Source: an uncultured Candidatus Saccharibacteria bacterium (GTDB lineage Bacteria > Patescibacteriota > Minisyncoccia > Phycocordibacterales > UBA9973). Taken from it: DNA of 64,000 nt. The notes under the pieces are model-generated. The model was given only the letters and a program-made list of their open reading frames with translations, had not been told where the DNA came from and searched no databases. The position numbers were made by a program, and so were the translations under genes. The stretch lies in contig CAYZYV010000001.1 in the NCBI GenBank assembly GCA_964482735.1, forward strand, positions 80,172-144,171. Direction: 5' to 3'. The stretch's first letter is position 1, and the number at the start of each line of letters is the position of its first letter. This document shows positions 5,631-63,199 of the stretch, in pieces.

Positions 5631-5659
5631 TTAGTGATTTTTTTAAAAAATCTAAATTG

Positions 5660-5718
5660 AGCCCACGATCGGAATTGAACCGATGACCTCGCCCTTACCA
5701 TGGGTGTGCTCTACCAAC
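5660..5718 (-). pseudogene. tRNA-Thr(GGU)-like 3' two-thirds lacking a 5' acceptor/D arm (pseudo-tRNA)
   Basis: Nearly identical to 5782-5854 from the D-stem 3' strand through the acceptor 3' strand. That stretch is GGTAGAGCACACCCATGGTAAGGGCGAGGTCATCGGTTCAATTCCGATCGTGGGCT. The 5' part is replaced by the 40-bp repeat at 5719-5758. Confidence 0.5.
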
Positions 5719-5758
5719 TCCTGCCCGCAATGCTTAAAGCATAGCTTTTGCAGGCGGG
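5719..5758. repeat. 40-bp GC-rich repeat CCTGCCCGCAATGCYTAAAGCATAGCTTTTGCAGGCGGG (copy 1 of 3)
   Basis: Same sequence at 63161-63199, with a variant at 63123-63160. It contains the crossed complementary blocks CCTGC/GCAGG and CCGC/GCGG. Confidence 0.6.
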
Positions 5759-5781
5759 GAGCTACAAAACTTCATCCGCTG

Positions 5782-6651: not shown

Positions 6652-6725
6652 GCAGCCGTAGCTCAACTGGTTAGAGCACCCGCCTGTCACGCGGGAGGTT
6701 GAGGGTTCAAGTCCCTTCGACTGCG
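6652..6725 (+). tRNA. tRNA-Asp (anticodon GUC)
   Basis: GCAGCCG / TAGCTCAACTGGTTAGAGC / CCCGC-CTGTCAC-GCGGG / GAGGG-TTCAAGT-CCCTT / CGACTGC-G. Anticodon arm identical to E. coli tRNA-Asp. Confidence 0.85.
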
Positions 6726-6735
6726 CAAATAAAAA

Positions 6736-6765
6736 AAGAAGCCTAAATGGCTTCTTTTTTTCAGT
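6736..6765 (+). terminator. Rho-independent terminator after tRNA-Asp
   Basis: GAAGCC-TAAAT-GGCTTC followed by TTTTTTT. Confidence 0.55.
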
Positions 6766-7060
6766 CGAAGGGACTTGAAAGACGGAGCACGACGGTGCGA
6801 GGCGGGGTCGCGAGATTTTTCAGCAGAAAAATACTTGTGACCAAGTCCCTCGTTTTGTATTTTATTTATATATACTGGGTGATTTTGTTTTTTGCATAAG
6901 AAGGGACTTGAACCGGGGGCTTGCGAAGCCCGCGACAGCGGAAAGCCCGAGTGGAGGTCAATGAAGTGAGATATTTTATGAGTGATAACGAAATAAAATA
7001 TCCACGAGAGTGACCAAGTCCCCCATTTTGCCTGCGTAGGGACTTGAACAGCGGAGTCAT
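6766..7060. repeat. Non-coding block of tRNA-derived fragments and mini-elements (GGGACTTGAA motif five times, both orientations)
   Basis: Inverted copy of the tRNA-Asp 3' end (CAGTCGAAGGGACTTGAA) at 6762-6780. TIR-like GGGACTTGAA / TTCAAGTCCC pairs bracket cores at 6770-6848 and 6899-7020. Confidence 0.55.
6941..7012. repeat. ~62-bp hairpin element, copy A; copy B at 39911-39985
   Basis: GAGTGGRGGTC...GTGAGATATTTTATGAGTGRTAACGAAATAAAATATCCACGAGAGTGACC, about 90% identical between the two loci. Contains a perfect stem GATATTTTAT / ATAAAATATC. Confidence 0.6.
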
Positions 7061-7171
7061 ATTTTTCTAACAAGAAAAATAGACGAGTTAGTGACTAGAC
7101 AAAAATTTTTGACAAAAGTGTTTTTTGAGAATAAGCTATAATTAAAATAAACCTTTTAAAAACTTAATAAC

Positions 7172-10680: not shown

Positions 10681-10792
10681 TCCTTCTCCATTCCTTATTC
10701 GTGTCATTCGTTCCCGTTCGTGGATTTGCGTCGTGTTTGCCTCCTTCTATTCGTGTCATTCGTTCTCATTCGTGTATTTGTGTCGTGTTTGC
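10681..10792. repeat. 2 x ~52-bp tandem repeat in the gatC-gatA spacer
   Basis: CTCCTTCTATTCGTGTCATTCGTTCYCRTTCGTGKATTTGYGTCGTGTTTGC appears twice, and each unit contains TTCGTG sub-repeats. Confidence 0.55.
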
Positions 10793-11123: not shown

Positions 11124-13310
11124 TTAACCTTGTATCATTTTTAAAAACTCTTGTTCGGAGATTGTTTTTATTTTTAGTTTCTCTGCTTCTTTTATTTTAC
11201 TTCCTGGGTTCTCTCCTGCTAAAACATACGAAGTGTTAGAAGAAACTGTTCCGGAAACCTTTCCGCCATTTTCTATTATTTTCTTCTTCGCCTCCTCTCT
11301 TGATAAAGTAGGCAATGTTCCAGTCAATACAAAAGTTTTTCCTGTAAAAACTCCTACTTTTTTCTTCTCAGTAATTATTTCTACTCCATTTTCTTTTAAT
11401 TTTTCTATGAAATGTAGGTTGTTTTTGTCTTTGAAAAATTCATATATACTTTTTGAAACTACAGGACCAATGTTTTCTATGCTATTTATTTCTTCTTCTT
11501 TAGCTTCTATTAAATTATCTAAAGTATGAAAGTACTCCGCCAAATCTATAGCTGTTTGTTCCCCTACATGAATAATTCCAAGGGCATAAATAAATCGCCA
11601 AAATGGAACCTTTTTATGTTCTTCGATTGAATTTATTATATTTTCTGCTGATTTATCACCGAATCTTTCTAGACCAGCAAGATCACTTTTTTCGAGGGTA
11701 AATAAATCAGTCGCATCACTGATAAGTCCCTCTTCTTTTAATCTATCCAAAATCTTAGGCCCTATTTCATAAATTTCAAAAACATTCACAAAGTGTTGCA
11801 AACCTCGCCTGTTTCGAGCTGGACAATTTTTATTTGTACAATAAAAAGCTACAGAATTTTTAGCTGGTGAAAAGTTGTTCGGAGAAAAGACTAGCGAGTC
11901 TCGACGGAGCGAGCTTGCTTGAAAGCAAACTGCTTTGCTTTCAAGGTGCTCACGAAGTGATGTGCCGATGTCTTTAGACAGGCACAAACGGGCATTTTTC
12001 GAGTGAATTATATCCGTGCTTTTCGAGGAATTACTTAAACCAGCAATCCTATCCACTCTTCCCCCACATACTGGACAAGAACTTGGCATCTCAAAATTCT
12101 TTTCTTTGCCAGAGCGTAAATCTTTCAAGACTTCAACAACTGCTGGTATAACATCACCGGCCTTTTCAATAATGACAGTGTCTCCTATTTTAACGTCCAA
12201 TCTTTTAATCTGATCGTAATTGTGCAAAGTAGCTTTAGAGACAGTTGATCCAGCTACCAAAGTTGGTTCAAAATGTGCCACAGGTGTTAGAACCCCAGTT
12301 CTACCAACATTAACTGAAATACTCTTAAGTACGGTTGCTGCTTGTTCAGCTTTGTATTTATAGGCAACTTTGAATCTTGGAGCCTTACCTACGATACCGA
12401 GAGTTTCTTGAGTTTTTAAATCTTCTATCGAAATAACTATGCCATCTGTTCCAAAAGGTAAACTTTCTCTAACCTTCTCAACTTCGTTTATAAAATCAAA
12501 AGCCTCGTTTAATACTCCAACTTTTTTAACATATTTATGAGTCAAAAATCCCCACTCTTTAAAGTATTTTTGCTTTTCAGATTGTGTTTGAATTCCTATA
12601 TTAGAATTAACTATTTCCCAAGGATAAAAGCTAAGTTTTCTTTCTTTAACTAGATTTGGATCAAGCTGTCTAAGACTTCCTGCCGCAGCGTTTCTAGTGT
12701 TAGCAAAAGGAGATTTACCGAGCTTCGCTTGTTCTTCGTTTAATTCTTCTAAAACTTTTTTAAGCATTATAACCTCCCCTCTTATCTCTACTTTATCAGG
12801 ATAATTTCCTTTTAGTTTTAAGGGGATAGCTTCTATCATTTTTAAATTTTCAGTCACATCTTCCCCAATCAATCCATCTCCCCTCGTAGCTCCTCGGACA
12901 AAAACTCCGTTTTTATAAGTTAAAATAGCAGTTAAACCATCTAGCTTTAATTCACAAAAATAATCTGTCTTTTTATTTGTAAGTTTATAAATTCTTTCTT
13001 GCCAATCTTCTACTTCTTCAAAAGAAAAAACATCATTTAGGCTTGTTGCCCTTGATTCATGTTTAACTTTACGAAAAGATTCGAGAGGTTTACCTCCCAC
13101 TCTTTCAAGAGTTGATTTTTCTTCTTTTACATCAGGATATTTTTTCTCTAGCCCCCTTAGTTCCCTAACCAGAGAATCATAAACTTCATCTGAAACAGAC
13201 GGACTATCTTGTTCATGATATTCTTTCTGATATCGAGAGATAAGTTCTCTTAAAAATTTTATCCTCTTTAAATCCTGAGAATAATCTTGTGGTAATTTAA
13301 TCTTTGGCAT
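11124..13310 (-). CDS. ligA: NAD-dependent DNA ligase
   Basis: Adenylation motif ELKLDG, OB domain, Zn finger CPVCG...CTNKNC, HhH and C-terminal BRCT. The Zn finger carries an insertion of about 60 aa; see the repeat at 11878-12032. Confidence 0.9.
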   Translation of the reverse strand: MPKIKLPQDYSQDLKRIKFLRELISRYQKEYHEQDSPSVSDEVYDSLVRELRGLEKKYPDVKEEKSTLERVGGKPLESFRKVKHESRATSLNDVFSFEEVEDWQERIYKLTNKKTDYFCELKLDGLTAILTYKNGVFVRGATRGDGLIGEDVTENLKMIEAIPLKLKGNYPDKVEIRGEVIMLKKVLEELNEEQAKLGKSPFANTRNAAAGSLRQLDPNLVKERKLSFYPWEIVNSNIGIQTQSEKQKYFKEWGFLTHKYVKKVGVLNEAFDFINEVEKVRESLPFGTDGIVISIEDLKTQETLGIVGKAPRFKVAYKYKAEQAATVLKSISVNVGRTGVLTPVAHFEPTLVAGSTVSKATLHNYDQIKRLDVKIGDTVIIEKAGDVIPAVVEVLKDLRSGKEKNFEMPSSCPVCGGRVDRIAGLSNSSKSTDIIHSKNARLCLSKDIGTSLREHLESKAVCFQASSLRRDSLVFSPNNFSPAKNSVAFYCTNKNCPARNRRGLQHFVNVFEIYEIGPKILDRLKEEGLISDATDLFTLEKSDLAGLERFGDKSAENIINSIEEHKKVPFWRFIYALGIIHVGEQTAIDLAEYFHTLDNLIEAKEEEINSIENIGPVVSKSIYEFFKDKNNLHFIEKLKENGVEIITEKKKVGVFTGKTFVLTGTLPTLSREEAKKKIIENGGKVSGTVSSNTSYVLAGENPGSKIKEAEKLKIKTISEQEFLKMIQG
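11878..12032. repeat. GC-rich palindromic mini-element inserted in-frame inside the ligA Zn-finger region
   Basis: Local GC far above the surrounding gene. Perfect 12-bp hairpin CTTGAAAGCAAA-CTGC-TTTGCTTTCAAG. Shares GAGCGAGC, AAACTGCTTTGCT and ATATCCGTGCT with the recG and tmRNA-region elements. Confidence 0.5.
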
Positions 13311-16590: not shown

Positions 16591-17049
16591 CTAGCAGGTT
16601 GCATCTCCAGAAGCCAAAGTATTTCCTGTTGTTTGTTTTGAAGCCCCCGTTGAATCTACACACCAAGAATTAGAGCTGCTTGTTTTTAAAGGCATAGAAA
16701 CTGCCCACGCAGCACCACCTGTGGTAACTGAGCATACCCCAGTAGATGAACCACTCGCTGATTCTGCTGAAGCAAAAGCACTCCTAATAGTTGCATCTGT
16801 GAACACCCCCGTTCCAGCTGTATCACAAGTCCCATCTGCACTATAATACAATGCAGAACCATAGTTATTGTTTGTATCGTAATACATTTCTGCTTGAGCT
16901 CTCATGTTCGATAAGTTATTTTTAATCGCAGCATCTGCTCCTTTGTTTCTAGCACTATTTAATGATGCTAAAACAACAGATGACAAGATACCAATGATCG
17001 CAATAACAACCAACAATTCGATCAATGTAAAACCTTTGTTTTTGTTCAT
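16591..17049 (-). CDS. Type IV major pilin, paralog 1
   Basis: MNKNKGFTLIELLVVIAIIGILSSVVLASLNSARNKGADAAIKNNL: prepilin leader and N-methyl-Phe motif. Terminator AACAACCCTGCTCGGGTTGTT at 16546-16580. Confidence 0.8.
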   Translation of the reverse strand: MNKNKGFTLIELLVVIAIIGILSSVVLASLNSARNKGADAAIKNNLSNMRAQAEMYYDTNNNYGSALYYSADGTCDTAGTGVFTDATIRSAFASAESASGSSTGVCSVTTGGAAWAVSMPLKTSSSNSWCVDSTGASKQTTGNTLASGDATC

Positions 17050-17168
17050 ATTTATATAAAAATTGAATTCAATTTAACGACCATAGTAATATGTTATATT
17101 ATATCATTCTTTGTATATAAAAAGCAAAATACCCAAGCTTTTAACTTGAGTATTTTTATTCCTAACTA

Positions 17169-17624
17169 TTATGCACCGCAGTCTCCATCCGAATTTGAAT
17201 CTGTACCGGAAACTGAAGCCCCAGTCGAATCAACACACCAGCTACCTCCTGCTTTTAATGCAGCAGATGCGGACCAGGAACTAGCTTTTGCTCCACTCGT
17301 TCCACCCATTACACAAGTAGGAGCAGAGTTTGCAGACGTAATGGAAGCTATCATTGATGTTATGGTAGGGTCCAAGAAGACGCTTGTTGCTGCCGTACAA
17401 CCAGAGGCAGGAAGTGTAGCAACTGTCGCGCTGCTATATCCAGAATTTGTATCATAATACATTTCTGCTTGTGGTCTCATATTTGCCAAGTTGTTTTTAA
17501 TCGCAGCATCTGCTCCTTTATTTCTAGCACTGTTTAATGATGCCAAAACAACTGAGGACAAGATACCAATGATCGCAATAACAACCAACAATTCGATCAA
17601 TGTAAAACCTTTGTTTTTGTTCAT
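17169..17624 (-). CDS. Type IV major pilin, paralog 2
   Basis: N-terminal 48 aa identical to paralog 1, C-terminus divergent. Upstream 80-bp promoter block repeated. Confidence 0.8.
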   Translation of the reverse strand: MNKNKGFTLIELLVVIAIIGILSSVVLASLNSARNKGADAAIKNNLANMRPQAEMYYDTNSGYSSATVATLPASGCTAATSVFLDPTITSMIASITSANSAPTCVMGGTSGAKASSWSASAALKAGGSWCVDSTGASVSGTDSNSDGDCGA

Positions 17625-17742
17625 ATTTATATAAAAATTGAATTCAATTTAACGACCATAGTAATATGTTATATTATATCATTCTTTGTATATAAAAAGC
17701 AAAACCCTCAAGTTTAAATTGAGGGTTTTATATATTTTGCTT

Positions 17743-18192
17743 TTAGCAATCGTAATCGTTGGCTCCTAGGTATCCTGTTATCTGTTTTGAAGCCCCTGTA
17801 GAATCTACGCACCATGAATTGGCAGAGCTTGTCTTTAAAGGAGAAGAGGCTGCCCAACTACCAGCTTGAGAATGACATATTACAGTAGTAGATGTTCCGG
17901 CGGTAGCTGGAGCTGTAACCACAGAAGTTGCTCCAGCGGCACTTTTTGCTGATTCCAACATAGCAGCCACAGGGCTGGTTGTTGTAGTACACAACGTCGC
18001 ATAACTATTGCTATTGTCGTCATAGTGCATCTCAGCTTGTGCTCTGATGTTCGATAAGTTGTTTTTAATCGCAGCATCTGCTCCTTTATTTCTAGCACTG
18101 TTTAATGATGCCAAAACAACTGAGGACAAGATACCAATGATTGCAATAACAACCAACAATTCGATCAATGTAAAACCTTTATTTTTGTTCAT
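17743..18192 (-). CDS. Type IV major pilin, paralog 3
   Basis: Same N-terminus, C-terminus divergent with a Cys pair. Terminator AAACCCTCAA-GTTTAAAT-TGAGGGTTT at 17705-17735. Confidence 0.8.
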   Translation of the reverse strand: MNKNKGFTLIELLVVIAIIGILSSVVLASLNSARNKGADAAIKNNLSNIRAQAEMHYDDNSNSYATLCTTTTSPVAAMLESAKSAAGATSVVTAPATAGTSTTVICHSQAGSWAASSPLKTSSANSWCVDSTGASKQITGYLGANDYDC

Positions 18193-18305
18193 ATTTTATA
18201 AAATTGAATTCAATTTAACGACCATAGTAATACGCTAATTATATCATTTTTTGTATATAAAAAGCAAAACCTCCAGTTTAGACTGGAGGTTTTGCTTTTT
18301 AATTA

Positions 18306-27490: not shown

Positions 27491-27635
27491 GTCACGAGTT
27501 ACTAAATTTTTTATTTCGCTTTGCTCATAAAAAATAAAGTACTCTCGACCCCGACTCGGCAGTTTGAAAAGTTTTTCAAACTTTTCTCTGCCTGCGTCTT
27601 TCGAATCCCGCCCCGCACACATACGCCAAAAATCG

Positions 27636-27664
27636 ATACCTATGTAAACGGTATCGATTTTGGT
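27636..27664. terminator. Hairpin terminator downstream of tRNA-Ser
   Basis: AAATCGATACC-TATGTAAAC-GGTATCGATTT, an 11-bp stem with A/T runs on both sides. Confidence 0.45.
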
Positions 27665-27669
27665 CGTTG

Positions 27670-27756
27670 CGGAGACGCAGGGATTCGAACCCTGGAGCCT
27701 TTTTACGGGCTACCTCGTTAGCAGTGAGGCGCTTTCGACCACTCAGCCACGTCTCC
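27670..27756 (-). tRNA. tRNA-Ser (anticodon GCU)
   Basis: GGAGACG / TGGCTGAGTGGTCGAAAGCG / anticodon loop CTGCTAA / long variable arm GGTAGCCCGTAAAAAGGCTCC / AGGGTTCGAATCCCT / CGTCTCC-G. Confidence 0.85.
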
Positions 27757-27915
27757 AAAATTTTTCACTTTTACCGTTAAGACTTTCTACACATTATCAC
27801 AAAATTAATTATTTCTCAACGGGATAAATAAAAAACCTCCCATGACTTTTGTCGAGGAGGTTTTAAAAAAATATAACCCTATTTGGAATTCTTCTTTGCC
27901 ACTTTTTTAGGTGGC

Positions 27916-28038
27916 TTACTTTTTGGTTTTGGAGGCCACGGATTCTTTTGTCCGCTTTGTCACCCTTTTTGGTGACTTGCTTTTTGGAGACCGGGGGTTC
28001 TTTTGCCCGCCAGCGCTTCCAGTATTTGCTCCTGCCAT
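27916..28038 (-). CDS. Candidate 40-codon Lys/Ser/Pro-rich small ORF lying on a 2 x ~60-bp tandem repeat (uncertain: peptide or structured RNA)
   Basis: Hand translation gives MAGANTGSAGGQKNPRSPKSKSPKRVTKRTKESVASKTKK. Starts 12 nt after the radical-SAM stop on the same strand. The underlying DNA forms two repeat units, each with a 6-bp hairpin (GCCAC-TTTTTTA-GGTGGC and GTCAC-CCTTTTT-GGTGAC). Confidence 0.25.
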   Translation of the reverse strand: MAGANTGSAGGQKNPRSPKSKSPKRVTKRTKESVASKTKK

Positions 28039-28049
28039 TTTGTTATTTT

Positions 28050-29192
28050 TTAAAAATTAAACAAATTTGAGAAGAAAAGATATTCTCTTTTTAATTCTTC
28101 TTTACCATAAAGGCTAAACCATTTTTGAGCCCCGAGAGAGTACAATTCTCTAAAATTAGAATTAGCTTCTAATTCAGAGACGTTATGGCTTTCGTTTCCG
28201 AATAATTCTTCCAGTGTGTATTGCATACAATACGGCAACCTGTATGTCGCATCCGCGTCGATAAGAAAAGTCTCTGCTATACACATACTTATAGGAACAT
28301 ATTCGATTCTAATACCATCAATAAGGAAGCTGACACAACTAGAATCAACTAAGACCGTATCTTTTTTGATTTTATTATTTCTCGTAGTTAACATGAACTT
28401 TTTTAAATCTTCTAGTTTATAAAATCTTAGAAAGATTTTACCTTCTCCGGCAAAGGAGTAAATTTTCTTGTATTGATTCCAAAAGGCACTATAATCATCC
28501 AAGACAAAATCGGAATCCTTTGTAACAACTTCAGACGCAGGAGTTACATGTATTTCGTCAACAAGATTATTAGCCAACAAATAATTAGCTGTTTTCTCAA
28601 AATCACAAAAGTTAATTTTTGTGAGAGTAAACAAGCTAGTTACTTTTTTAGCGTAAGACCTCGCCTCTCTTAGCCCAACGACAGCCTCTTCAAAAGACTT
28701 GTTCGAATTTCTCTGAATGTTATGAACTTTTTCCATTCCATCTAAAGAGATGTCAATCCAATCAAATAAGAGACTGCTTTCTTTTAAAATCTTTCCTTGT
28801 TTAATATAAGAGCCATTATCCAATAATCCGATACAGATGTCTGGTCTTGTCTCTTTTATTTTTTTCATTACGGGAATATGCCATCCTTGTAAGATTCTCC
28901 CCTCGTGAACAACAAAAGAATTTTTTGGAAGCTGAGATACAATGTTTAAAATTTTTTGTTCTAAACAATTATTCTCAGATATAACACGAGAAGACTTTTC
29001 TCTTTGAAAAAAACAATGTTTGCAGTTAAGATTACAAGTCCTTTCCATTATCAGAGAACAGATTTTTGGATATTCTCTTTCTAGAGATTTTTCAAGGCCC
29101 CAAATGTTCTTGTGGAAAATATGACTTGAGGTCATTATTTGAAACCATTTATCTATTGTTCCCATATATCTAATTTTTAAATTTTTAAACAA
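28050..29192 (-). CDS. Radical SAM domain protein
   Basis: CNLNCKHC = CxxxCxxC cluster near the N-terminus. 380 aa. C-terminal region has scattered Cys but no canonical SPASM spacing. Confidence 0.7.
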   Translation of the reverse strand: MFKNLKIRYMGTIDKWFQIMTSSHIFHKNIWGLEKSLEREYPKICSLIMERTCNLNCKHCFFQREKSSRVISENNCLEQKILNIVSQLPKNSFVVHEGRILQGWHIPVMKKIKETRPDICIGLLDNGSYIKQGKILKESSLLFDWIDISLDGMEKVHNIQRNSNKSFEEAVVGLREARSYAKKVTSLFTLTKINFCDFEKTANYLLANNLVDEIHVTPASEVVTKDSDFVLDDYSAFWNQYKKIYSFAGEGKIFLRFYKLEDLKKFMLTTRNNKIKKDTVLVDSSCVSFLIDGIRIEYVPISMCIAETFLIDADATYRLPYCMQYTLEELFGNESHNVSELEANSNFRELYSLGAQKWFSLYGKEELKREYLFFSNLFNF

Positions 29193-29382
29193 CTTTTGAT
29201 TAAATTATAAATAAATATACTAATTGGTCAAATAAAGTCAGATAAAATAACAGATAAACGTTAATTTAATCATTGGTTTACAACGTGTTTTGTTAATATA
29301 CTATAGTGTTGTCAGTTTAGTTGACATTTTTAATTAATAGAATACAATATAATTATTAATCTTTTAGGAAAAATAAGAAAAA

Positions 29383-30120
29383 ATGAGCACAATTATTAAC
29401 ACCTTAATGGATCTTGGCCTTACAAACAAAGAAGCCAGTCTTTATTATGCCCTACTAAGGAAAGGAAGGTCTACTGTCCTAGAATTAGCCAAGGAATCTG
29501 GTCTTAAAAGGCCAACGGTTTATTTAACTTTGGATTCATTGAGAAATAAAGGTTTAATTTTAAAAATACCATACGCCAAGAAATCAGTTTATATAGCAAA
29601 GGAGCCGGACGAGTTTTTCAGAGATACTTACAACAAGATAAAGAGAGCTGGTGACAATCTGTCTCAAATAAAAGCCCTTTCTAAAAAGGAAGATAAGGTT
29701 TTTGTTAGATATTACGAAGGAGAGGGAGAGGTCAAAGAATCACTTTTCTACAGAATAGAAGAATTAAAAGGAACCGAAGACGTTGGTTTTTTTGCTAAAG
29801 CTGAAGAGATTAGTCCTTTTTTAATAAAATCATCACACCAATGGAGAGAAGAAAGTAAACACAGAAATATAAAAGTGAAAGGAATTGCTCCTTTTCACCC
29901 TACATTAGAAGAATTTAGAAAAACAGATAAAAATCTAGATCAAGTTTTTAAATCTATACCGATTAGTCTGTACTCTTCTAACTGTTCCATAGATGCCACT
30001 GATTTATTTGTAAGGATTGTTTTATTTAACGAAAATCAATCAGTTATTATAGAAAATAAAGAAATTGTAAAAACAATAAAACAAATTTTTAATATCTGTT
30101 GGGAAAGTATTAAAAATTAA
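29383..30120 (+). CDS. TrmB-family transcriptional regulator (sugar-specific HTH)
   Basis: N-terminal LGLTNKEASLYYALLRKGRSTVLELAKESGLKRPTVYLTLDSL, the TrmB wHTH pattern. Divergent from the radical-SAM gene. Confidence 0.55.
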   Translation: MSTIINTLMDLGLTNKEASLYYALLRKGRSTVLELAKESGLKRPTVYLTLDSLRNKGLILKIPYAKKSVYIAKEPDEFFRDTYNKIKRAGDNLSQIKALSKKEDKVFVRYYEGEGEVKESLFYRIEELKGTEDVGFFAKAEEISPFLIKSSHQWREESKHRNIKVKGIAPFHPTLEEFRKTDKNLDQVFKSIPISLYSSNCSIDATDLFVRIVLFNENQSVIIENKEIVKTIKQIFNICWESIKN

Positions 30121-30156
30121 TTATTTCTCAACGAGGTTTTTTGATATAATAATTCC

Positions 30157-30873
30157 ATGAGAATATCAGTTTTAATCATTGCGCATAATGAGGAAGAAAT
30201 AATTAAAAAATGTCTTTACTCTGCTATAAACCAAACCGTTAAACCAGATGAGATTATTTTAGTTGCCCATAATTGTACAGATAGGACGATTGAAATTGCT
30301 CAGGAGTTTAAAACAATAAAGATAATTCGATTTGATGGACCTCGAGGCACTGCTTACCCTAGAATAGAAGGATTGTCTCACGTATCGAATGAAAATGACA
30401 TAATTCTATGTATAGATGGTGATTGTGTAGCTAAAGAAAACTGGGTTGAAGAAATGTCGCACACTTTGAATCTCAACAACAACATTTTGGTTGGAAGTTA
30501 TATCAAATTTAAGGGCGATTTATTTTTATCAATTTCTAATATATTTAATAAAATAAAATGTAAAACTTCTGGAGAAAAAGCAGTTCGCTGGCTATGGGGA
30601 GGAAGTTTCGCCTTTTGGAATAAAGATAAGGATTTAGTAAAAAATATATTTGAAAAAACAATAGAATTATCAAGGGATTTACAACTTAGTAGAAATCCTG
30701 AAGACTTCTTACTTGCAAAGTTTTTAAAGAAAAAAGGAAACATAGAAATCACAAATAAAACTTTTGTGGTAGCTATGGCTAAAGAAAAATCTATTTTTGA
30801 ATCTTTCAAAAGGAATAGAGAGAATAACAAAAATGCTGAAAGGATAGAAAAATACTTTTTAACCTTAAAATAA
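30157..30873 (+). CDS. Family 2 glycosyltransferase
   Basis: VLIIAHNEEEII...DGDC: GT-A fold with DxD-like motif. Confidence 0.7.
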   Translation: MRISVLIIAHNEEEIIKKCLYSAINQTVKPDEIILVAHNCTDRTIEIAQEFKTIKIIRFDGPRGTAYPRIEGLSHVSNENDIILCIDGDCVAKENWVEEMSHTLNLNNNILVGSYIKFKGDLFLSISNIFNKIKCKTSGEKAVRWLWGGSFAFWNKDKDLVKNIFEKTIELSRDLQLSRNPEDFLLAKFLKKKGNIEITNKTFVVAMAKEKSIFESFKRNRENNKNAERIEKYFLTLK

Positions 30874-32833: not shown

Positions 32834-32965
32834 ATGAAAATAGAACTATCAAAAGCACAAACCATAATACTTCTTATGATTTTTATTGCTATTGGTGGAA
32901 TAGTTCTATATAGCGATACCAACCCAAACAATTTTTCACCCCTAGACCATGTATTTAAACGATAA
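32834..32965 (+). CDS. Possible 43-aa membrane peptide, leaderless-like
   Basis: MKIELSKAQTIILLMIFIAIGGIVLYSDTNPNNFSPLDHVFKR. A TATAAT sits 6 nt upstream. Overlaps the recG start by 17 nt. Confidence 0.25.
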   Translation: MKIELSKAQTIILLMIFIAIGGIVLYSDTNPNNFSPLDHVFKR

Positions 32966-35219
32966 AATAGAATCTCATTTTCGAATAGATATTAACCAAA
33001 AGAAAGCTCTAATAAAGCTAGGGCTTAATACTATTTCTGATTTGTTATTTTACTTTCCTTTTCGGTACTCAAACATAAGTGAATTCAGAAATATCAATAC
33101 TTTAGAAGATGGAGAATTGGTGACCATCATCGGCAAGGTTTCTAATCTTAAGACCAAGAAAGGGTTTAAGAGCAAAATCCCTATGGGACAAGCAACAATT
33201 ACTGATATGACAGGAAAAATAAACATTATCTGGTTCCACCAGCCATATTTAGCAAAAATGATAAAAGATGGAGCAACTGTTAAGGTAACAGGTAAGGTCT
33301 CAAATAGCAAAACTTACGGATTAACTTTAACTAATCCAGAAATTAGTAAAGAGGATATTTTGCCAATAGATATTAGTGATTCTTTGTTTAATAACCAGGA
33401 AAACATTTCTCAATTTGGCTTCCCTATATACGGAGAAACAAGAGGCATAACTTCTAAGTGGATTTATCATGCTATTAATAAAATCCTTAAGCAAGACTTT
33501 ATAAAGGGAATTTCAGACTATTTACCAAAAGAGATTTTAGATAAATACAAATTACCAACCCTTCACACTGCTCTTGTCTGGATACACACCCCACAAAAAA
33601 AAGAACATGCTGAAATTGCAAGAAAAAGATTCGCTTTCGAAGAAGTTTTCTTTATCCAATTGTCTCGATTACAAGAAAGAAAAAGGTACGAGGAGCTATT
33701 TTCTTATAAATTAAAAATAGACAATGACGATATCAAGGACTTCACTTCTCGTTTTCCATTCTCTCCCACCCTCGCACAAAAAGAAACCATTAAAACAATT
33801 TTGGATGATTTAAAGAAAGATAAACCAATGTCTCGTCTTATCGAAGGTGATGTTGGAAGCGGAAAAACTTTTGTCGCTGCGACAATTGCATATTCGGTTA
33901 TCAAGAATAGACCAGCTGGCCAAGATTTTGGAAATATTCAAGTCGCCTATATGGCTCCGACAGAAGTCTTAGCTACTCAACTCTTCGAAAATTTTATAAA
34001 ATATTTTGATCATACTGGAATATCCATAGGTCTAATTACTTCTTCAGGATGTCGTAAGTTTCCTAGCAAAAGTGCTGCTTGGGAAAATGGGAAACAAATT
34101 CACACTTGGACAACTATTTCTAAAAACCAGTTATTAAAATGGGTTAAAAATGGAGAAATACCTATTGTTATCGGAACACACTCTCTGATTTCTAAATCAG
34201 TTGATTTTGAAGATTTAGGTTTAGTTGTTATTGATGAGCAACATCGCTTTGGAACAAACCAAAGAATGAAACTAGCTAAAAAAGAAGGCCACTCCCCTCA
34301 CTACCTTTCCATGACTGCCACCCCTATTCCTCGAACTCTCGCTTTGACTATCTACGGAGATCTTGATTTATCTATCATAGACGAAATGCCAGCCGGAAGA
34401 AAAAAAGTTATCACTGAAATAGTTCCTGAAAATAAAAGGGAGTTGGCCTACGACAAAATTCGTGAAGAATTAAAAGCTGGCCGTCAACTTTATGTTATTT
34501 GCCCAAAAATCGAAAATGGAGATGGTGGCGAGATCGAGATTATTGATTCCGAGAGACCAGCGAGTGCGACGGCACGAGCTCGAGGAATTTTTCAGCAGAA
34601 AAATATCCGTGCTCTCGGAATCAATAATCTCGATCTCAAAAGCGTATCTTCCGAAGCAAAAAGATTAAAGAAAGAAGTTTTCCCTGAATACGAAATTGCA
34701 ATTATGCACAGTAAAATGAGTAAACAAAAAAAAGAACAGGTCATGAAAGACTTCGAAGATCATAAGATTGATATACTCGTCTCAACTTCTGTAATTGAAG
34801 TTGGAGTTAATGTTCCAAATGCCACAGTTATCGTTATCGAAGGAGCAGAAAGATTTGGGCTCGCTCAACTCCACCAGCTTCGTGGAAGAGTTATTAGATC
34901 AACTTATCAATCGTATTGTTACCTGTTTGCTAATGCAAAAGCGGATAAGACAATCGACAGATTGAAAGCACTTACCAAAGCTGCTAATGGTTTTGAACTT
35001 GCCGAATTAGATTTACAACTTCGAGGAGCAGGACTTCTTTCTGGAGACAAACAATGGGGTGTAAGTGACCTAGCTATGGAGGCTATGAAAAATATAAAAA
35101 TGGTAGAAGCTGCCCGTAGTGAAGCAAAAGAAATCATAGAAAAAGACGTTGAACTGAGAAATCACCAAACCCTTGCAAACACATTAAAAAACAAGCATCT
35201 AAACTTGCATTTTGAATAA
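32949..35219 (+). CDS. recG: ATP-dependent DNA helicase RecG
   Basis: 756 aa. Wedge domain, helicase motifs DVGSGKT, DEQHRFG, SATPIPRT and HQLRGRVIRS. Carries a 36-aa in-frame insertion encoded by the element at 34530-34637. Confidence 0.9.
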   Translation: MYLNDKIESHFRIDINQKKALIKLGLNTISDLLFYFPFRYSNISEFRNINTLEDGELVTIIGKVSNLKTKKGFKSKIPMGQATITDMTGKINIIWFHQPYLAKMIKDGATVKVTGKVSNSKTYGLTLTNPEISKEDILPIDISDSLFNNQENISQFGFPIYGETRGITSKWIYHAINKILKQDFIKGISDYLPKEILDKYKLPTLHTALVWIHTPQKKEHAEIARKRFAFEEVFFIQLSRLQERKRYEELFSYKLKIDNDDIKDFTSRFPFSPTLAQKETIKTILDDLKKDKPMSRLIEGDVGSGKTFVAATIAYSVIKNRPAGQDFGNIQVAYMAPTEVLATQLFENFIKYFDHTGISIGLITSSGCRKFPSKSAAWENGKQIHTWTTISKNQLLKWVKNGEIPIVIGTHSLISKSVDFEDLGLVVIDEQHRFGTNQRMKLAKKEGHSPHYLSMTATPIPRTLALTIYGDLDLSIIDEMPAGRKKVITEIVPENKRELAYDKIREELKAGRQLYVICPKIENGDGGEIEIIDSERPASATARARGIFQQKNIRALGINNLDLKSVSSEAKRLKKEVFPEYEIAIMHSKMSKQKKEQVMKDFEDHKIDILVSTSVIEVGVNVPNATVIVIEGAERFGLAQLHQLRGRVIRSTYQSYCYLFANAKADKTIDRLKALTKAANGFELAELDLQLRGAGLLSGDKQWGVSDLAMEAMKNIKMVEAARSEAKEIIEKDVELRNHQTLANTLKNKHLNLHFE
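34530..34637. mobile_element. MITE-like palindromic element (108 bp, perfect 26-bp TIR) inserted in-frame in recG
   Basis: Left arm GAGATCGAGATTATTGATTCCGAGAG (34530-34555) is the exact reverse complement of the right arm (34612-34637). The 56-bp GC-rich core contains CGACGGCACGAGCTCGAGG and the hairpin ATTTTTC-AGCA-GAAAAAT, also present at 6812-6830. Confidence 0.65.
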
Positions 35220-39315: not shown

Positions 39316-39704
39316 GGGGATGATCGGCTTCGACAAGTGGAATCATCTTATATATGCATGTAAAGTACTCAGGAATCTTTTGAAACTTCCTGAAAAAGAC
39401 TAAGTGCAAACAAAGTCGCAAAGGTTGCATCACCCTATGCTTCGGCATTCGGTAATCCAGCTTTCGCTTTCGCCTAAACGGCCAGAGCGATGTCTGCTCT
39501 TTTGACACCCGATATAAAGAGTAGGCATCATTCATCGGGTTAAGGTTTTGCAGGTGCTTGTCGCAAAATCTGACAAGTTAAAGCTCGATATTTATCTTTT
39601 TTGTGTGTTCTCTAGGATAAATATTTAAAACCAATGAACACAATAAACATGTAGATTTATTTAGGAGTTTCATTTGCACGCGGGTTCGATTCCCGCCATC
39701 TCCA
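39316..39704 (+). ncRNA. ssrA: tmRNA (ssrA)
   Basis: 5' end GGGGATGATCGGCTTCGAC and 3' end GCGGGTTCGATTCCCGCCATCTCCA form a tRNA-Ala-like acceptor/T arm with the G3:U70 wobble. Resume codon GCA at 39406 opens the tag ORF ANKVAKVASPYASAFGNPAFAFA, with stop TAA at 39475-39477. Confidence 0.8.
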
Positions 39705-39711
39705 CACGTTG

Positions 39712-39748
39712 AAAAAAGAGTCCGTCGCAAGACGGCCTTTTTTCTTGT
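39712..39748 (+). terminator. Terminator after tmRNA
   Basis: CCGTC-GCAA-GACGG followed by CCTTTTTTC. Confidence 0.5.
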
Positions 39749-39751
39749 GTG

Positions 39752-40068
39752 GAGATGAGCGAGCAAACTGCTTTGCTCGCGTGCGGGAATCGAAAGGCTT
39801 TTCCGTACGAACGAAGTGAGGTGGAAAAGCACCCGCGACCGTAGGGCGAGATTCCCGTTTCAATGATGGCGGGAATCGAACCGAGCTCCGACAAAGTCCG
39901 CGAAGCGGCCGGAGCGAGTGGGGGTCGAGCGAGTGAGATATTTTATGAGTGGTAACGAAATAAAATATCCACGAGAGTGACCGATGAACCTATTCTGCTT
40001 TGCTCGCGTGCGGGAATCGAAAGGCTTTTCCGTACGAACGAAGTGAGGTGGAAAAGCACCCGCGACCG
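39752..40068. repeat. Repeat-dense non-coding block downstream of tmRNA
   Basis: Holds inverted copies of the tmRNA 3' end (39752-39762, 39873-39893) and a 9-bp hairpin GCGAGCAAA-CTGC-TTTGCTCGC. It also holds a 73-bp exact direct repeat at 39772-39842 and 39998-40068, plus hairpin element copy B (39911-39985). Confidence 0.65.
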
Positions 40069-40155
40069 TTTAATATTACATAATGGCTGGGATAGAGCTG
40101 GGGAGCTCAAATTGTGTCTATAGGGAGAGAATTAATTATTTAATTCTCTCTTTTT

Positions 40156-63122: not shown

Positions 63123-63199
63123 CCTGCCCGCAATGCTTTCGCATAGGCGATGCAAGCGGGCCTGCCCGCAATGCCTAAAGCATAGCTTTTGCAGGCGGG
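63123..63199. repeat. Two tandem units of the 40-bp CCTGCCCGCAATGC...GCRRGCGGG repeat (copies 2 and 3)
   Basis: 63123-63160 and 63161-63199. The second unit is nearly identical to 5719-5758. Confidence 0.6.

What the first reader, a model, noticed from the sequence alone, without database searches (positions are those of the whole stretch)
11878..12032. Related GC-rich palindromic element inside the ligA zinc-finger region
The LigA Zn finger normally has about 12-15 residues between CPVCG and the second Cys pair. Here it has about 72, which is about 57-60 residues above that norm. The extra DNA is locally GC-rich. It contains a perfect 12-bp hairpin CTTGAAAGCAAA-CTGC-TTTGCTTTCAAG. It shares AAACTGCTTTGCT, GAGCGAGC and ATATCCGTGCT with the tmRNA-flank repeats and the recG element. 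This makes a second essential gene with an in-frame copy of the same element family.
Basis: partly seen in the sequence, partly recalled or inferred. Interest (0 to 1): 0.7.

Follow-up and report, generated by a model that had tools for sequence, protein, structure and literature searches.

The report
Hairpin repeat inside DNA ligase gene
A small GC-rich, hairpin-forming repeat has landed in frame inside the zinc-finger loop of the essential DNA ligase gene of an ultra-small (CPR) bacterium. It belongs to a large, apparently undescribed family of such repeats that sit in many housekeeping genes of these bacteria, much as the palindromic elements of Rickettsia do.

Summary
ligA (11124-13310, minus strand) carries about 54-61 extra residues between the two Cys pairs of its zinc finger. 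They are encoded by a 182-nt imperfect palindrome (11863-12044; GC 45-49% against 34.6% for the window).

The insert belongs to a dispersed repeat family. The family has a conserved, asymmetric Y-shaped core of about 55 nt: P2 GCGC-GACGG-GCGC and P3 GGAATTTTTC-AGCA-GAAAAATATCC. The core is flanked by locus-specific inverted arms. Other copies in the window lie in recG (34530-34637) and beside tRNA-Asp (6769-6850).

A core-pattern scan of metagenomes reached its 120-stretch limit. A model built from those copies found 107 copies in 0.72 Mb of the fetched loci. 25 of 111 copies lie in frame inside genes such as TsaD, UvrD, PheT, KsgA and IscS-like genes. None breaks a large gene.

Strains 97.7-99.4% identical to the window show three states at this ligA site: this copy, a near-empty site, and a different element.

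AlphaFold predicts the inserted peptide as a disordered loop.

The best reading is a selfish, translated, Rickettsia-RPE-like element. Its arms come partly from inverted duplication of the host flank, which is not how a classical MITE is built. How it moves is unknown. I found no report of it in CPR bacteria.

The parts
11124..13310 (-). ligA, NAD-dependent DNA ligase, 728 aa, intact ORF that holds the insert
   Evidence: ORF list. Homologues carry the LigA Pfam domains. phmmer to E. coli LigA 2OWO gives E 1.8e-154.
11823..12077 (-). Cys4 zinc-finger segment, CPVC ... C-TNKN-C. It is 85 codons long, against 25-33 in uninterrupted orthologues.
   Evidence: PF03119 (the LigA zinc-binding domain) is not reported for this protein or for many of the longer orthologues.
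11863..12044 (+). The whole palindromic element (arms plus core). The core orientation is taken as the window + strand, antisense to ligA.
   Evidence: Fold z -4.4. Alignment to L068, the recG copy and L001. Window 11872-12023 is absent from the 97.7%-identical L028, and 11858-12051 is replaced in the 99.4%-identical L029.
11863..11889 (+). Left arm GCTGGTGAAAAGTTGTTCGGAGAAAAG. It encodes ...FSPNNFSPA... in ligA and is the inferred inverted copy of the host flank.
   Evidence: It pairs with 12019-12044 in the MFE fold. It matches the corresponding arm of the L001 LigA copy.
12019..12044 (+). Right arm CTTTTCGAGGAATTACTTAAACCAGC. It encodes AGLSNSSKS and its outer part is host-like (the conserved x-G of the finger turn).
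   Evidence: Uninterrupted orthologues keep similar codons here, for example L011 GGTTTGAATAATTCATC. Peptide comparison.
11890..11913 (+). Conserved 5' core: junction ACTAGCGAG plus helix P2 (tCTC-GACG-GAGC) and GAGC
   Evidence: Aligned to the model consensus in the third-ranked hit in the window (15.5 bits, E 0.24, not significant on its own). The motif CGACGGNNCGAG has 3 hits against 0.00 expected.
11914..11987 (+). Extra 'long-form' segment at the variable site between P2 and P3. It holds hairpin H1 (11918-11945, 12 bp perfect) and hairpin H2 (11962-11985).
   Evidence: The same segment occurs in the intergenic copy L068:3160-3345. Other copies carry other extra hairpins at this same site.
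11988..12018 (+). Diverged P3-equivalent hairpin and the conserved 3' end ...ATATCCGTG
   Evidence: Fold. Alignment with the recG, L068 and L001 copies. ATATCCGTGCT is shared with recG.
34530..34637 (+). Sister copy, in frame in recG (32949-35219). It has 26-bp perfect arms (34530-34555 and 34612-34637) and a canonical 56-nt core (34556-34611).
   Evidence: Model R1 gives 99.8 bits, but this copy was in the training set. It is absent from L033 (93-95% nt identity) and from L035.
6769..6850 (+). Sister copy (subfamily 2) in the 3' flank of tRNA-Asp, intergenic. Its arms copy the tRNA T-arm.
   Evidence: Model R1 gives 49 bits, E 1e-9, and this copy was not in the training set. Sequence read.
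39758..39780 (+). Hairpin module GCGAGCAAA-CTGC-TTTGCTCGC in the tmRNA 3' flank. It shares 16 nt with H1 of the ligA copy and splits an inverted copy of the tmRNA 3' end.
   Evidence: The same module occurs in 7 other loci.

Best explanation
**What it is.** The ligA insert is one copy, a 'long form', of a non-autonomous, structured, GC-rich palindromic repeat family found in AT-rich CPR/Patescibacteria (Paceibacteria-type) genomes.

**Architecture of the family**
- The core is a conserved, asymmetric sequence of about 55 nt, (C)TTGCGAGCGCGAC(T)GGCGCGAGCACGAGGAATTTTTCAGCAGAAAAATATCCGT(G).
- The core forms two hairpins, P2 and P3, with conserved loops GACGG and AGCA.
- A third helix, P1, closes the structure. 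Its two arms are locus-specific.
- A variable site between P2 and P3 can carry extra hairpins, as it does in ligA.

**In ligA (shown).** The element sits in the loop between Cys pair 1 and Cys pair 2 of the Cys4 zinc finger. It is in frame and free of stop codons.

**In ligA (inferred).** It is transcribed and translated with the gene. The result is a disordered excursion of about 55-63 residues at the tip of the finger hairpin. The enzyme tolerates it, and it brings no benefit to the enzyme.

**Why copies in genes are all in frame (inferred).** Five of the six reading frames of the core are free of stops. Selection removes insertions that break a frame or a fold. Only copies in permissive surface loops survive. 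This would explain why the same few sites (LigA finger, a RecG loop, and sites in TsaD, IscS-like and UvrD proteins) are occupied again and again.

**How it spreads (inferred, low confidence).** The element is recognised or propagated as a folded single strand.
- The arms are made, at least in part, by fold-back (intrastrand template-switch) synthesis. This copies the adjacent host flank in inverted orientation: U-D becomes U-T'-core-T-D.
- Fold-back synthesis would also keep the two arms complementary.
- Alleles at a site then turn over by nested insertion, deletion, core replacement and homologous exchange between strains.
For: **Insertion and polymorphism**
- L028 is 97.7% nt identical over 5.6 kb and lacks window 11872-12023.
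- L029 is 99.4% and 97.3% identical on the two sides and carries an unrelated 146-nt element in place of 11858-12051.
- P0241 is a chimera of that other element plus a remnant of the right arm of this one.
- 120 LigA homologues range from 661 to 739 aa. At this one site they carry at least six or seven insert peptide families. Families B and C are the same DNA read in opposite orientations.

**Family membership**
- Core motifs.
- Arms equal to those of the L001 copy, which model R1 detects at E 9e-10.
- A long-form middle shared with intergenic L068.

**Dispersal**
- The metagenome scan hit its limit at 120 stretches.
- R1 found 107 copies in 0.72 Mb, with up to 6 in 13 kb.

**Conserved structure**
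- 92.8% of cells are paired, against 66.7% in shuffles and at most 57% in the slid controls.
- All 28 pairs show compensatory double changes. P2 is 96% paired and P3 99%.
- The diverged copy in L015 keeps P2 and P3 with different stem sequences.

**Copies in genes**
- 25 of 111 copies lie inside stop-free ORFs of 190 aa or more.
- Pfam identifies the host proteins as TsaD, UvrD, an AddA-like helicase-nuclease, Aminotran_5 (both orientations), PMT_2, PheT, RrnaAD, RsmE and a Mur ligase.
- No copy is flanked by 120 aa or more of open frame on both sides while being interrupted.

**Arms**
- Length is 9-43 bp (median 22) and 17 of 38 are perfect.
- Arm GC is 0.35, like the host, against 0.51 for the core.
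- Only 13 of 703 pairs of copies share a 10-mer in the arm.
- In recG the outer 12 nt of the right arm (AATCTCGATCTC, coding NLDL) is host sequence, present in the uninterrupted L035 and L033. The left arm is its reverse complement and is absent from those loci.
- The L031 recG copy has changed at 11 of 26 arm positions on both arms together.

**Protein**
- AlphaFold2 gives pLDDT 21-38 and no secondary structure for residues 423-485.
- The flanking finger strands 418-421 and 489-491 are kept.
Against: - There is no transcript or protein evidence that the insert is retained in the mRNA and translated.
- No mobilising enzyme or autonomous partner was found. There are no split halves around a cargo gene, no IS with the long TIR, and no hit in viral contigs.
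- The ligA copy itself scores only 15.5 bits (E 0.24) with the model, because of its 73-nt internal expansion. Its membership therefore rests on motif positions, arm homology and the L068 alignment.
- Host origin of an arm is demonstrated cleanly only for recG. For ligA, the 'empty' alleles may themselves be deletion footprints.
- A sub-group with long conserved TIRs shows 6-7-bp direct target duplications. This points to ordinary transposase-type insertion for at least some members.
- The polarity of host arm against copied arm is not constant relative to the core. L076 is opposite to the window copies.
- The conserved structure could reflect a host-level RNA or DNA function rather than selfish spread.
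- The alignment used for pair counts was fitted to the model, which inflates the pairing figures.
Confidence: 0.75

Rival explanations
1. The extra segment is a lineage-specific functional domain or expansion segment of LigA. It would have been selected at the protein level, for example as a new DNA- or partner-binding loop of the zinc finger.
For: The ORF is intact, and many CPR LigA orthologues have long linkers at this position. The family-A peptide AGLSNSSKSTNISLLGNFSARPSRPAQVFSQNNSSPAQ recurs in orthologues with only 60-72% identity. The insert adds two Cys residues inside the finger loop.
Against: - At least six or seven unrelated peptide families occupy the site, including the same DNA read in opposite orientation.
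- Strains 97.7-99.4% identical differ completely here.
- The same DNA core occurs in intergenic DNA and, in three frames and both orientations, in unrelated proteins.
- AlphaFold predicts disorder, with pLDDT 21-38.
- What is conserved is base pairing, not codons.
Confidence: 0.05
2. The element is an intervening sequence that is removed before the protein is made. Candidates are a small self-cleaving or self-splicing RNA, excision guided by helix P1 with religation of the flanks, or intein-like protein splicing. On this reading LigA itself is unaffected.
For: The fold is a conserved three-way junction with invariant loops and strong covariation, as expected of a functional RNA. Helix P1 brings the two host flanks together. 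Introns are unusually common in Patescibacteria (PMC13011429).
Against: - All intragenic copies are in frame and stop-free. The count is 25 against 0 frame-breaking copies inside large genes. Such a bias would not be needed if the element were excised.
- No intron or ribozyme family matched in Rfam at the gathering threshold, nor up to E 5-10 in the regions scanned.
- At 55-130 nt the core is far below group I or II intron size.
- The peptide has no intein motifs, and the reading frame differs between copies.
- Excision by RNase III alone would destroy the mRNA (established knowledge).
Confidence: 0.08
3. The element is not mobile. On this reading it is a local palindrome that grew in place by template switching, or a single ancient insertion inherited vertically. 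The differences between strains would then reflect only deletion and import of alleles by recombination.
For: The arms are locally derived. Alleles appear to be exchanged, since the flanks are 97-99% identical while the site itself is unrelated. No transposase was found. The same sites in LigA, RecG, TsaD and IscS-like proteins are occupied in many lineages.
Against: - The same 55-nt core occurs at more than 100 unrelated loci and in more than 10 different genes.
- Copy density reaches 6 per 13 kb.
- Uninterrupted RecG alleles are nearly invariant across 75-92% identical orthologues. That is the expected ancestral state, with later insertions.
- The recG copy of the relative L031 has a core closer to the ligA copy of the window than to the recG copy of the window.
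- 6-7-bp target duplications occur in one sub-group.
Confidence: 0.1
4. The insert is an assembly artefact or chimera in a metagenome-assembled genome.
For: The source is an uncultured MAG. Palindromes can provoke misassembly. The exact protein forms a cluster of one and was not found in the gene index.
Against: The reading frame is preserved exactly. Independent assemblies from other samples carry homologous inserts at the same site with the same arms (L001; P0006, P0023 and others). The long-form middle is found independently in L068. The recG copy is seen in several assemblies.
Confidence: 0.02

Closest known systems
[quoted passage not shown] 2000, 2002; Claverie & Ogata 2003; summarised in PMC10969869 and PMC6649704)
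   Same: - Short (about 100-150 bp) palindromic repeats with no coding capacity of their own.
- Many copies in a small, AT-rich, reduced genome.
- A large share is inserted in frame in unrelated housekeeping genes and also next to RNA genes.
- The inserts are thought to sit in permissive surface positions and to be translated.
- Several families coexist.
   Different: - The host phylum is unrelated, and no sequence relation was tested.
- Here the conserved part is an asymmetric core of about 55 nt with two covarying hairpins, and the palindrome arms are locus-specific and partly host-derived. In RPEs the palindrome itself is the family consensus.
- RPEs are reported to encode a conserved peptide in one frame (PMC10969869). 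Here three or more frames and both orientations are used.
- RPE copies are described as decaying (PMC6649704). Here 17 of 38 canonical copies have perfect arms.
Classical bacterial MITEs (Correia/NEMIS, ERIC, RUP, BOX and others; reviews PMC10969869, PMC2229807, PMC3184786)
   Same: They are small, non-coding, hairpin-forming, dispersed and mostly intergenic, with occasional in-frame intragenic copies. One sub-group here (CTTTGAATTACGAAAC... ends) has conserved TIRs and 6-7-bp direct target duplications.
   Different: Most copies have no conserved terminal inverted repeat and no direct target duplication. The sequence next to the core is arbitrary and is mirrored on the other side. No parent IS was found.
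GC clusters and other GC-rich palindromic elements of AT-rich organelle genomes, and the coding palindromes of Nematomorpha mitochondria (PMC6649704; the yeast GC clusters are from my own knowledge)
   Same: These are GC-rich hairpins in AT-rich reduced genomes, some of them inside coding regions and translated. Perfect arms are thought to be kept by template switching or arm-to-arm correction.
   Different: The Nematomorpha palindromes have no shared mobile core, and both of their arms encode conserved protein. Here a conserved core is shared by hundreds of loci and the arms encode dispensable loop sequence.
Hairpin-dependent single-strand elements: IS200/IS605-derived PATEs, REP/BIME with RAYT (PMC3733652), and integron attC sites
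   Same: What is conserved is a folded structure with specific loops, as expected for recognition in single-stranded form. There are no classical TIRs or target duplications.
   Different: - The two hairpins are unlike each other.
- I saw no conserved target tetranucleotide and no GTAG or CGTC tag.
- No TnpA, RAYT or integrase partner was seen.
- REPs are extragenic and 20-40 bp long.
- attC sites conserve their ends and vary in the centre, which is the reverse of this family.

Membership tests
RPE-like protein-coding palindromic repeats (functional class) | A dispersed family with multiple copies per genome | tested here: met
   There are 3 core copies in the 64-kb window. Model R1 found 107 copies in 0.72 Mb, with up to 6 per 13 kb.
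RPE-like protein-coding palindromic repeats (functional class) | A palindromic element that forms a stable hairpin | tested here: met
   The ligA copy has z -4.4 as DNA and z -4.1 as RNA. Family helices P1-P3 are 92.8% paired and show covariation.
RPE-like protein-coding palindromic repeats (functional class) | Insertion in frame in unrelated protein-coding genes with the ORF preserved | tested here: met
   ligA and recG in the window. 25 of 111 metagenome copies lie in ORFs of 190 aa or more from at least 9 Pfam families. No copy breaks a large gene.
RPE-like protein-coding palindromic repeats (functional class) | The insert is compatible with protein fold and function (surface position, active enzyme) | tested here: inconclusive
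   AlphaFold2 places residues 423-485 as a low-confidence unstructured loop between preserved finger strands. Enzyme activity cannot be tested here.
Rickettsia RPE families proper (homology) | Sequence similarity to the RPE-1 to RPE-10 consensus sequences | not tested
   No RPE consensus was available in the tools used. The host phylum is unrelated, so homology is not expected.
Classical MITE | Conserved terminal inverted repeats shared by all copies | tested here: not met
   The arms are locus-specific. Only 13 of 703 copy pairs share a 10-mer, and the sequence adjacent to the core is arbitrary. One sub-group (L042, L057, L067, L079, L141, L150) is an exception.
Classical MITE | Direct target-site duplication flanking the element | tested here: not met
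   I saw none at most copies, nor at the recG copy when compared with the empty sites L035 and L033. 6-7-bp duplications (AGAATA, CATATAC, TCATAC) occur only in the long-TIR sub-group (read by eye).
Classical MITE | A related autonomous IS with the same ends | tested here: inconclusive
   None was found in 1.34 Mb of held loci. Complete genomes were not available.
Group I / group II intron or known self-cleaving ribozyme | A match to a curated RNA family; the size and catalytic core of that family | tested here: not met
   The Rfam gathering scan of the window found only tRNAs and the tmRNA. E-value scans of the ligA, recG and tRNA-Asp-flank copies gave only chance hairpin matches far below threshold.
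REP / BIME | 20-40-bp extragenic palindromes with a GTAG or CGTC tag and an associated RAYT (PMC3733652) | tested here: not met
   The elements are 80-180 nt, about a fifth are intragenic, and the consensus has no terminal GTAG or CGTC tag. No RAYT was seen, though it was not searched for exhaustively.
NAD-dependent DNA ligase LigA (host gene) | Adenylation, OB, Cys4 zinc finger, HhH and BRCT domains in order | tested here: met
   Pfam domains on P0001. Full-length alignment to 2OWO in two blocks around the insert. All four Cys residues are present.

The most novel reading that the evidence does not exclude
This may be a previously unrecognised class of structured mobile element in CPR bacteria.
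- It has a Y-shaped core of about 55 nt with conserved loops.
- It would be propagated as a folded single strand, without terminal repeats or direct target duplications.
- It would build its own stem by fold-back copying of the host flank at each new site.
- It would repeatedly colonise, flip and replace itself in the same permissive loops of essential proteins.

Alternatively, the conserved fold may have a host-level RNA or DNA function that is carried inside coding regions.
Probability: 0.3. Interest if true: 0.8.

Novelty: new variant of a known kind. Interest (0 to 1): 0.62.

Why it matters
- It would extend the 'selfish DNA inside protein-coding genes' phenomenon to a second, very large and unrelated bacterial radiation with reduced genomes. 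So far that phenomenon is essentially a Rickettsia speciality.
- It would explain many unexplained length differences and missed domain calls in CPR housekeeping proteins. For example, the LigA zinc-finger Pfam model fails on the interrupted proteins.
- The three allelic states in strains 97.7-99.4% identical offer a natural system for catching insertion, replacement and deletion in progress.
- The conserved-core, host-derived-arm architecture points to a propagation mechanism unlike that of classical MITEs.
- For annotation, a covariance model of the core would flag these inserts and prevent them from being misread as novel protein domains.

Tried and rejected
- **Known RNA families.** The Rfam gathering scan of the whole window and the E-value scans of three copies gave no intron, ribozyme or sRNA family.
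- **Group I introns of Patescibacteria tRNAs** (PMC13011429). I considered these for the tRNA-flank arrays. The units are too small and do not match Rfam.
- **Phage carriage.** The core pattern has 0 hits in 2.9 M viral contigs.
- **Autonomous partner.** I found no P2 and P3 halves separated by cargo. No inverted pair of the long TIR encloses a gene. The ORFs of the copy-rich contig L042 show only a LAGLIDADG-like ORF, read by eye, and no transposase.
- **Fixed polarity of host arm against copied arm.** ligA and recG in the window suggested it, but the L076 IscS-like copy contradicts it, so I dropped the idea.
- **'Family A insert plus a private nested insertion' for the ligA copy.** I rejected this because the same long middle exists in L068.
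- **The 13-mer AAACTGCTTTGCT as a family marker.** It is not enriched at 2 mismatches. Only the exact 16-mer and its recurrence in other loci are informative.
- **tRNA-Thr-like copy at 5658-5780.** Deleting its 39-nt hairpin does not restore a tRNA that ARAGORN recognises.
- **Source record and literature.** The source record of the window could not be retrieved by exact protein look-up. Six literature searches found no description of such elements in CPR/Patescibacteria. The library is incomplete, so this is absence of evidence only.
Full report
**1. The observation**

- ligA is an intact 728-aa ORF on the minus strand, 11124-13310.
- Its zinc finger reads CPVC-(75 residues)-C-TNKN-C. Uninterrupted orthologues from related bacteria have 15-18 residues between the two Cys pairs.
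- phmmer against solved structures aligns residues 17-425 and 491-726 to E. coli LigA (2OWO) residues 8-421 and 426-669. So 65 residues stand where E. coli has four.
- The extra DNA has GC 0.45-0.49 in a window of GC 0.346.
- It contains the perfect 12-bp hairpin at 11918-11945.
- As a whole (11863-12044) it folds into a multi-branched structure closed by a terminal stem. This fold is better than all 200 dinucleotide shuffles (DNA z -4.4, RNA z -4.1).

**2. It is an insertion, and the site is polymorphic**

The 120 best LigA homologues come from bacteria that the sources label Nomurabacteria, Moranbacteria or Paceibacterota.

- They are 661-739 aa long.
- The short ones have a canonical finger loop.
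- The long ones carry, at exactly this loop, at least six or seven different peptide families.
- At the DNA level, families B and C are the same element in opposite orientations.

Three contigs from very close relatives settle the matter:
- L028 is 97.7% identical in nucleotides on both sides and lacks window 11872-12023.
- L029 is 99.4% and 97.3% identical on the two sides and carries an unrelated 146-nt element in place of 11858-12051.
- The window carries the present element.

A fourth allele, P0241, is a chimera of the L029-type element and a remnant of the right arm of the present type.

The same pattern holds for recG (32949-35219):
- The base length is 722-728 aa.
- About half of the orthologues carry 13-60 extra residues at one site.
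- The 93-95%-identical L033 is uninterrupted.
- The 94%-identical L031 carries a different variant.

**3. What the insert is**

I took a pattern from the hairpin shared by the recG copy and the tRNA-Asp-flank copy and scanned metagenome contigs with it.

The canonical copies share an asymmetric core of 55-57 nt: (C)TTGCGAGCGCGAC(T)GGCGCGAGCACGAGGAATTTTTCAGCAGAAAAATATCCGT(G). Inverted arms border the core directly:
- They are 9-43 bp long (median 22).
- 17 of 38 are perfect.
- Their composition is host-like (GC 0.35, against 0.51 for the core).
- They are essentially unrelated between loci. Only 13 of 703 pairs share a 10-mer.

RNAalifold gives a three-way junction made of P1 (the arms), P2 (GCGC-GACGG-GCGC) and P3 (GGAATTTTTC-AGCA-GAAAAATATCC).

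I built a covariance model from 32 copies. It found 107 copies in 0.72 Mb of held loci. These included copies without the search pattern, and up to six in 13 kb.

On that alignment:
- 92.8% of cells are paired, against 66.7% in shuffles and at most 57% when partners are slid.
- Every one of the 28 pairs shows compensatory double changes.
- The alignment is fitted to the model, which favours pairing. However, P2 was not part of the search pattern or of the arm selection.
- The diverged copy in L015 keeps both hairpins with different stem sequences and the same loops.

**4. Membership of the ligA copy**

- In the window the model finds the recG copy (which was in the training set) and the tRNA-Asp-flank copy at 6769-6850 (49 bits, E 1e-9, independent).
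- The 5' half of the ligA insert is the third-best hit at 15.5 bits, E 0.24. That is not significant on its own.
- The score is low because the ligA copy has 73 extra nucleotides at the P2/P3 junction. Several other copies also carry extra hairpins at that site.
- The family motif CGACGGNNCGAG occurs three times in the window, at these three copies and all on the + strand, with 0.00 expected.
- The conserved 3' end ATATCCGTG abuts the right arm, as it does in the family.
- The arms match those of the family-A LigA insert of L001. The model detects that insert independently (52 bits, E 9e-10).
- The 73-nt middle, including hairpins H1 and H2, is shared with an intergenic copy in another organism, L068:3160-3345.
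- The ligA insert is therefore a 'long form' of the family sitting in family-A arms. It is not a private oddity.
- The H1 module (GCAAACTGCTTTGC) recurs at eight other places. Most of them lie inside inverted copies of tRNA or tmRNA 3' ends, including the tmRNA flank of the window.

**5. Copies in genes are translated rather than removed (inference)**

- 25 of 111 copies lie in stop-free ORFs of 190 aa or more.
- Pfam identifies the host proteins as TsaD, UvrD/PcrA, an AddA-like helicase-nuclease, class-V aminotransferase (both orientations), PMT_2, PheT, KsgA, RsmE and a Mur ligase.
- Five of the six frames of the core are open. I read this from the consensus, and the peptides SATARARGIFQQKNIRA, ASTRNFSAEKYPC, ELRRRELEEFFSRKISV, HGYFSAEKFLVLAPSRSQ and TDIFLLKNS are all seen.
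- No copy is flanked by 120 aa or more of open frame on both sides while being interrupted. With a 70-aa threshold the count is 14 spanned against 4 interrupted, and the 4 are compatible with ordinary gene boundaries.
- If the element were spliced out, there would be no reason for this bias.
- No intron or ribozyme family matches.
- AlphaFold2, run with 50 homologues, gives mean pLDDT 76.5 for LigA. Residues 423-485 have pLDDT 21-38 and no secondary structure. The finger strands 418-421 and 489-491 on either side are kept.
- The likely outcome is a disordered loop at the tip of the finger hairpin. Activity was not testable.

**6. The arms and the mechanism**

In recG the case is clean.
- The uninterrupted L035 reads ...GATGACAAC-AGTCTCGATCTA-AAAAGT...
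- The window reads ...GATGGTGGC-[GAGATCGAGATTATTGATTCCGAGAG-core-CTCTCGGAATCAAT]-AATCTCGATCTC-AAAAGC...
- The outer part of the right arm (NLDL, which is conserved in all RecG orthologues) is host sequence.
- The left arm is its reverse complement and is new.
- Between the window and L031, 11 of 26 arm positions differ on both arms together.

In LigA the left arm (in gene orientation) contains the conserved x-G of the finger turn, and the right arm mirrors it.

These facts fit fold-back (intrastrand template-switch) synthesis at a hairpin-forming element, giving U-T'-core-T-D. They also fit continuing arm-to-arm correction, as proposed for other palindromes (PMC6649704).

This part is inference, for four reasons:
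- One sub-group has conserved long TIRs and 6-7-bp direct duplications.
- The polarity is not constant (L076).
- No enzyme or autonomous partner was found.
- No phage carriage was found.

How the core first reaches a new site is unknown.

**7. Comparison with what is known**

- In behaviour this is closest to the Rickettsia palindromic elements: short palindromic repeats, many of them in frame in unrelated housekeeping genes of a reduced AT-rich genome (PMC10969869, PMC6649704).
- It differs in architecture. The core is conserved and asymmetric with covarying hairpins, the arms are locus-specific and partly host-derived, and most copies have no common TIR or target duplication.
- It also differs in reading-frame usage and in the high proportion of perfect arms.
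- It fails the defining tests of a classical MITE, of REP/BIME, of attC sites and of known introns or ribozymes (see the membership table).
- Six literature searches found no description of such elements in CPR/Patescibacteria.

**8. Verdict**

- The element is best filed as a new variant of a known kind: an RPE-like, protein-coding palindromic repeat.
- Three features are of real interest: its unusual structure, the hot-spot turnover between near-identical strains, and its wide distribution in CPR housekeeping genes.

Noticed in passing
window 6706-7100: The 3' flank of tRNA-Asp (6652-6726) holds an 18-nt perfect inverted copy of the tRNA 3' end (6706-6723 against 6762-6779) across the terminator. 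Three tandem GC-rich units follow, each bounded by GGGACTTGAA / CAAGTCCC, which is T-arm sequence in both orientations. The same layout (tRNA, terminator, inverted tRNA end, element, duplicated tRNA 3' end) recurs in metagenome loci such as L039, L043, L078 and L139.
   Followed up: partly
window 39683-40070; L035:7121-7910: The 3' flank of the tmRNA gene (39316-39705) has two inverted copies of the tmRNA 3' end. One (39865-39882) is an 18-nt perfect copy. The other (39749-39798) is split by the 25-nt hairpin module. There is also a 75-nt perfect direct repeat (39768-39842 = 39995-40069) and a 95-nt unit that is 81% identical to 6937-7031. In the relative L035 the tmRNA-pepF interval holds a 78-aa GIY-YIG ORF instead.
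   Followed up: partly
window 5658-5780, 63123-63199: A tRNA-Thr-like copy (92% identical to the 3' part of tRNA-Thr-GGT) is interrupted by a 39-nt GC-rich hairpin, CCTGCCCGCAATGCTTAAAGCATAGCTTTTGCAGGCGGG. The same hairpin (97%) and a variant lie at 63161-63199 and 63123-63160. Removing the hairpin does not restore a tRNA that ARAGORN recognises.
   Followed up: partly
window 27536-27665 and 27852-30759: Downstream of tRNA-Ser (27669-27756, minus strand) lies another GC-rich segment with an inverted T-arm-like motif. About 2.9 kb with three ORFs (27852-30759) is absent from L031, which is 99% identical on one side. This looks like a small island at the tRNA gene.
   Followed up: no
window 10696-10792: Two 45-nt direct repeats rich in ATTCGTG (91% identical) lie at the annotated 5' end of the gatA ORF. 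A similar CATTCGTGGATTCGTGTCG motif flanks an element copy in L051. The N-terminal 40 residues of the gatA ORF as listed may not be coding.
   Followed up: no
LigA homologues P0003, P0004, P0012, P0025, P0049, P0063, P0070, P0241; loci L003-L010, L029, L030: The LigA finger loop holds several other insert families, B/C, D, E, F and G. B/C is a distinct palindromic element (AAAGCTCCTCTTCGCAAGGTCCTCGG...GGCCAGACCATTGCTCAnAGGACTTT) with its own locus-specific perfect outer stems. Some proteins carry two elements in tandem (P0078, P0110), and P0241 is a chimera.
   Followed up: partly
window 11124-13310 (LigA residues about 444 and 462): The insert adds two cysteines (NARLCLSK and KAVCFQ) inside the Cys4 zinc-finger loop. 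In principle these could compete for zinc coordination.
   Followed up: no
L063, L087 against L076; L041, L094, L138; L056, L060: Other recurrent hot spots exist. The same site of an IscS-like aminotransferase is occupied in both orientations in different genomes. One TsaD site is occupied in three genomes and one UvrD site in two.
   Followed up: partly
window 16591-18301: Three tandem paralogous ORFs of about 150 aa share a 270-nt repeat (94% and 68% identical) spaced about 570 nt apart, next to the type IV pilus-like gene cluster.
   Followed up: no
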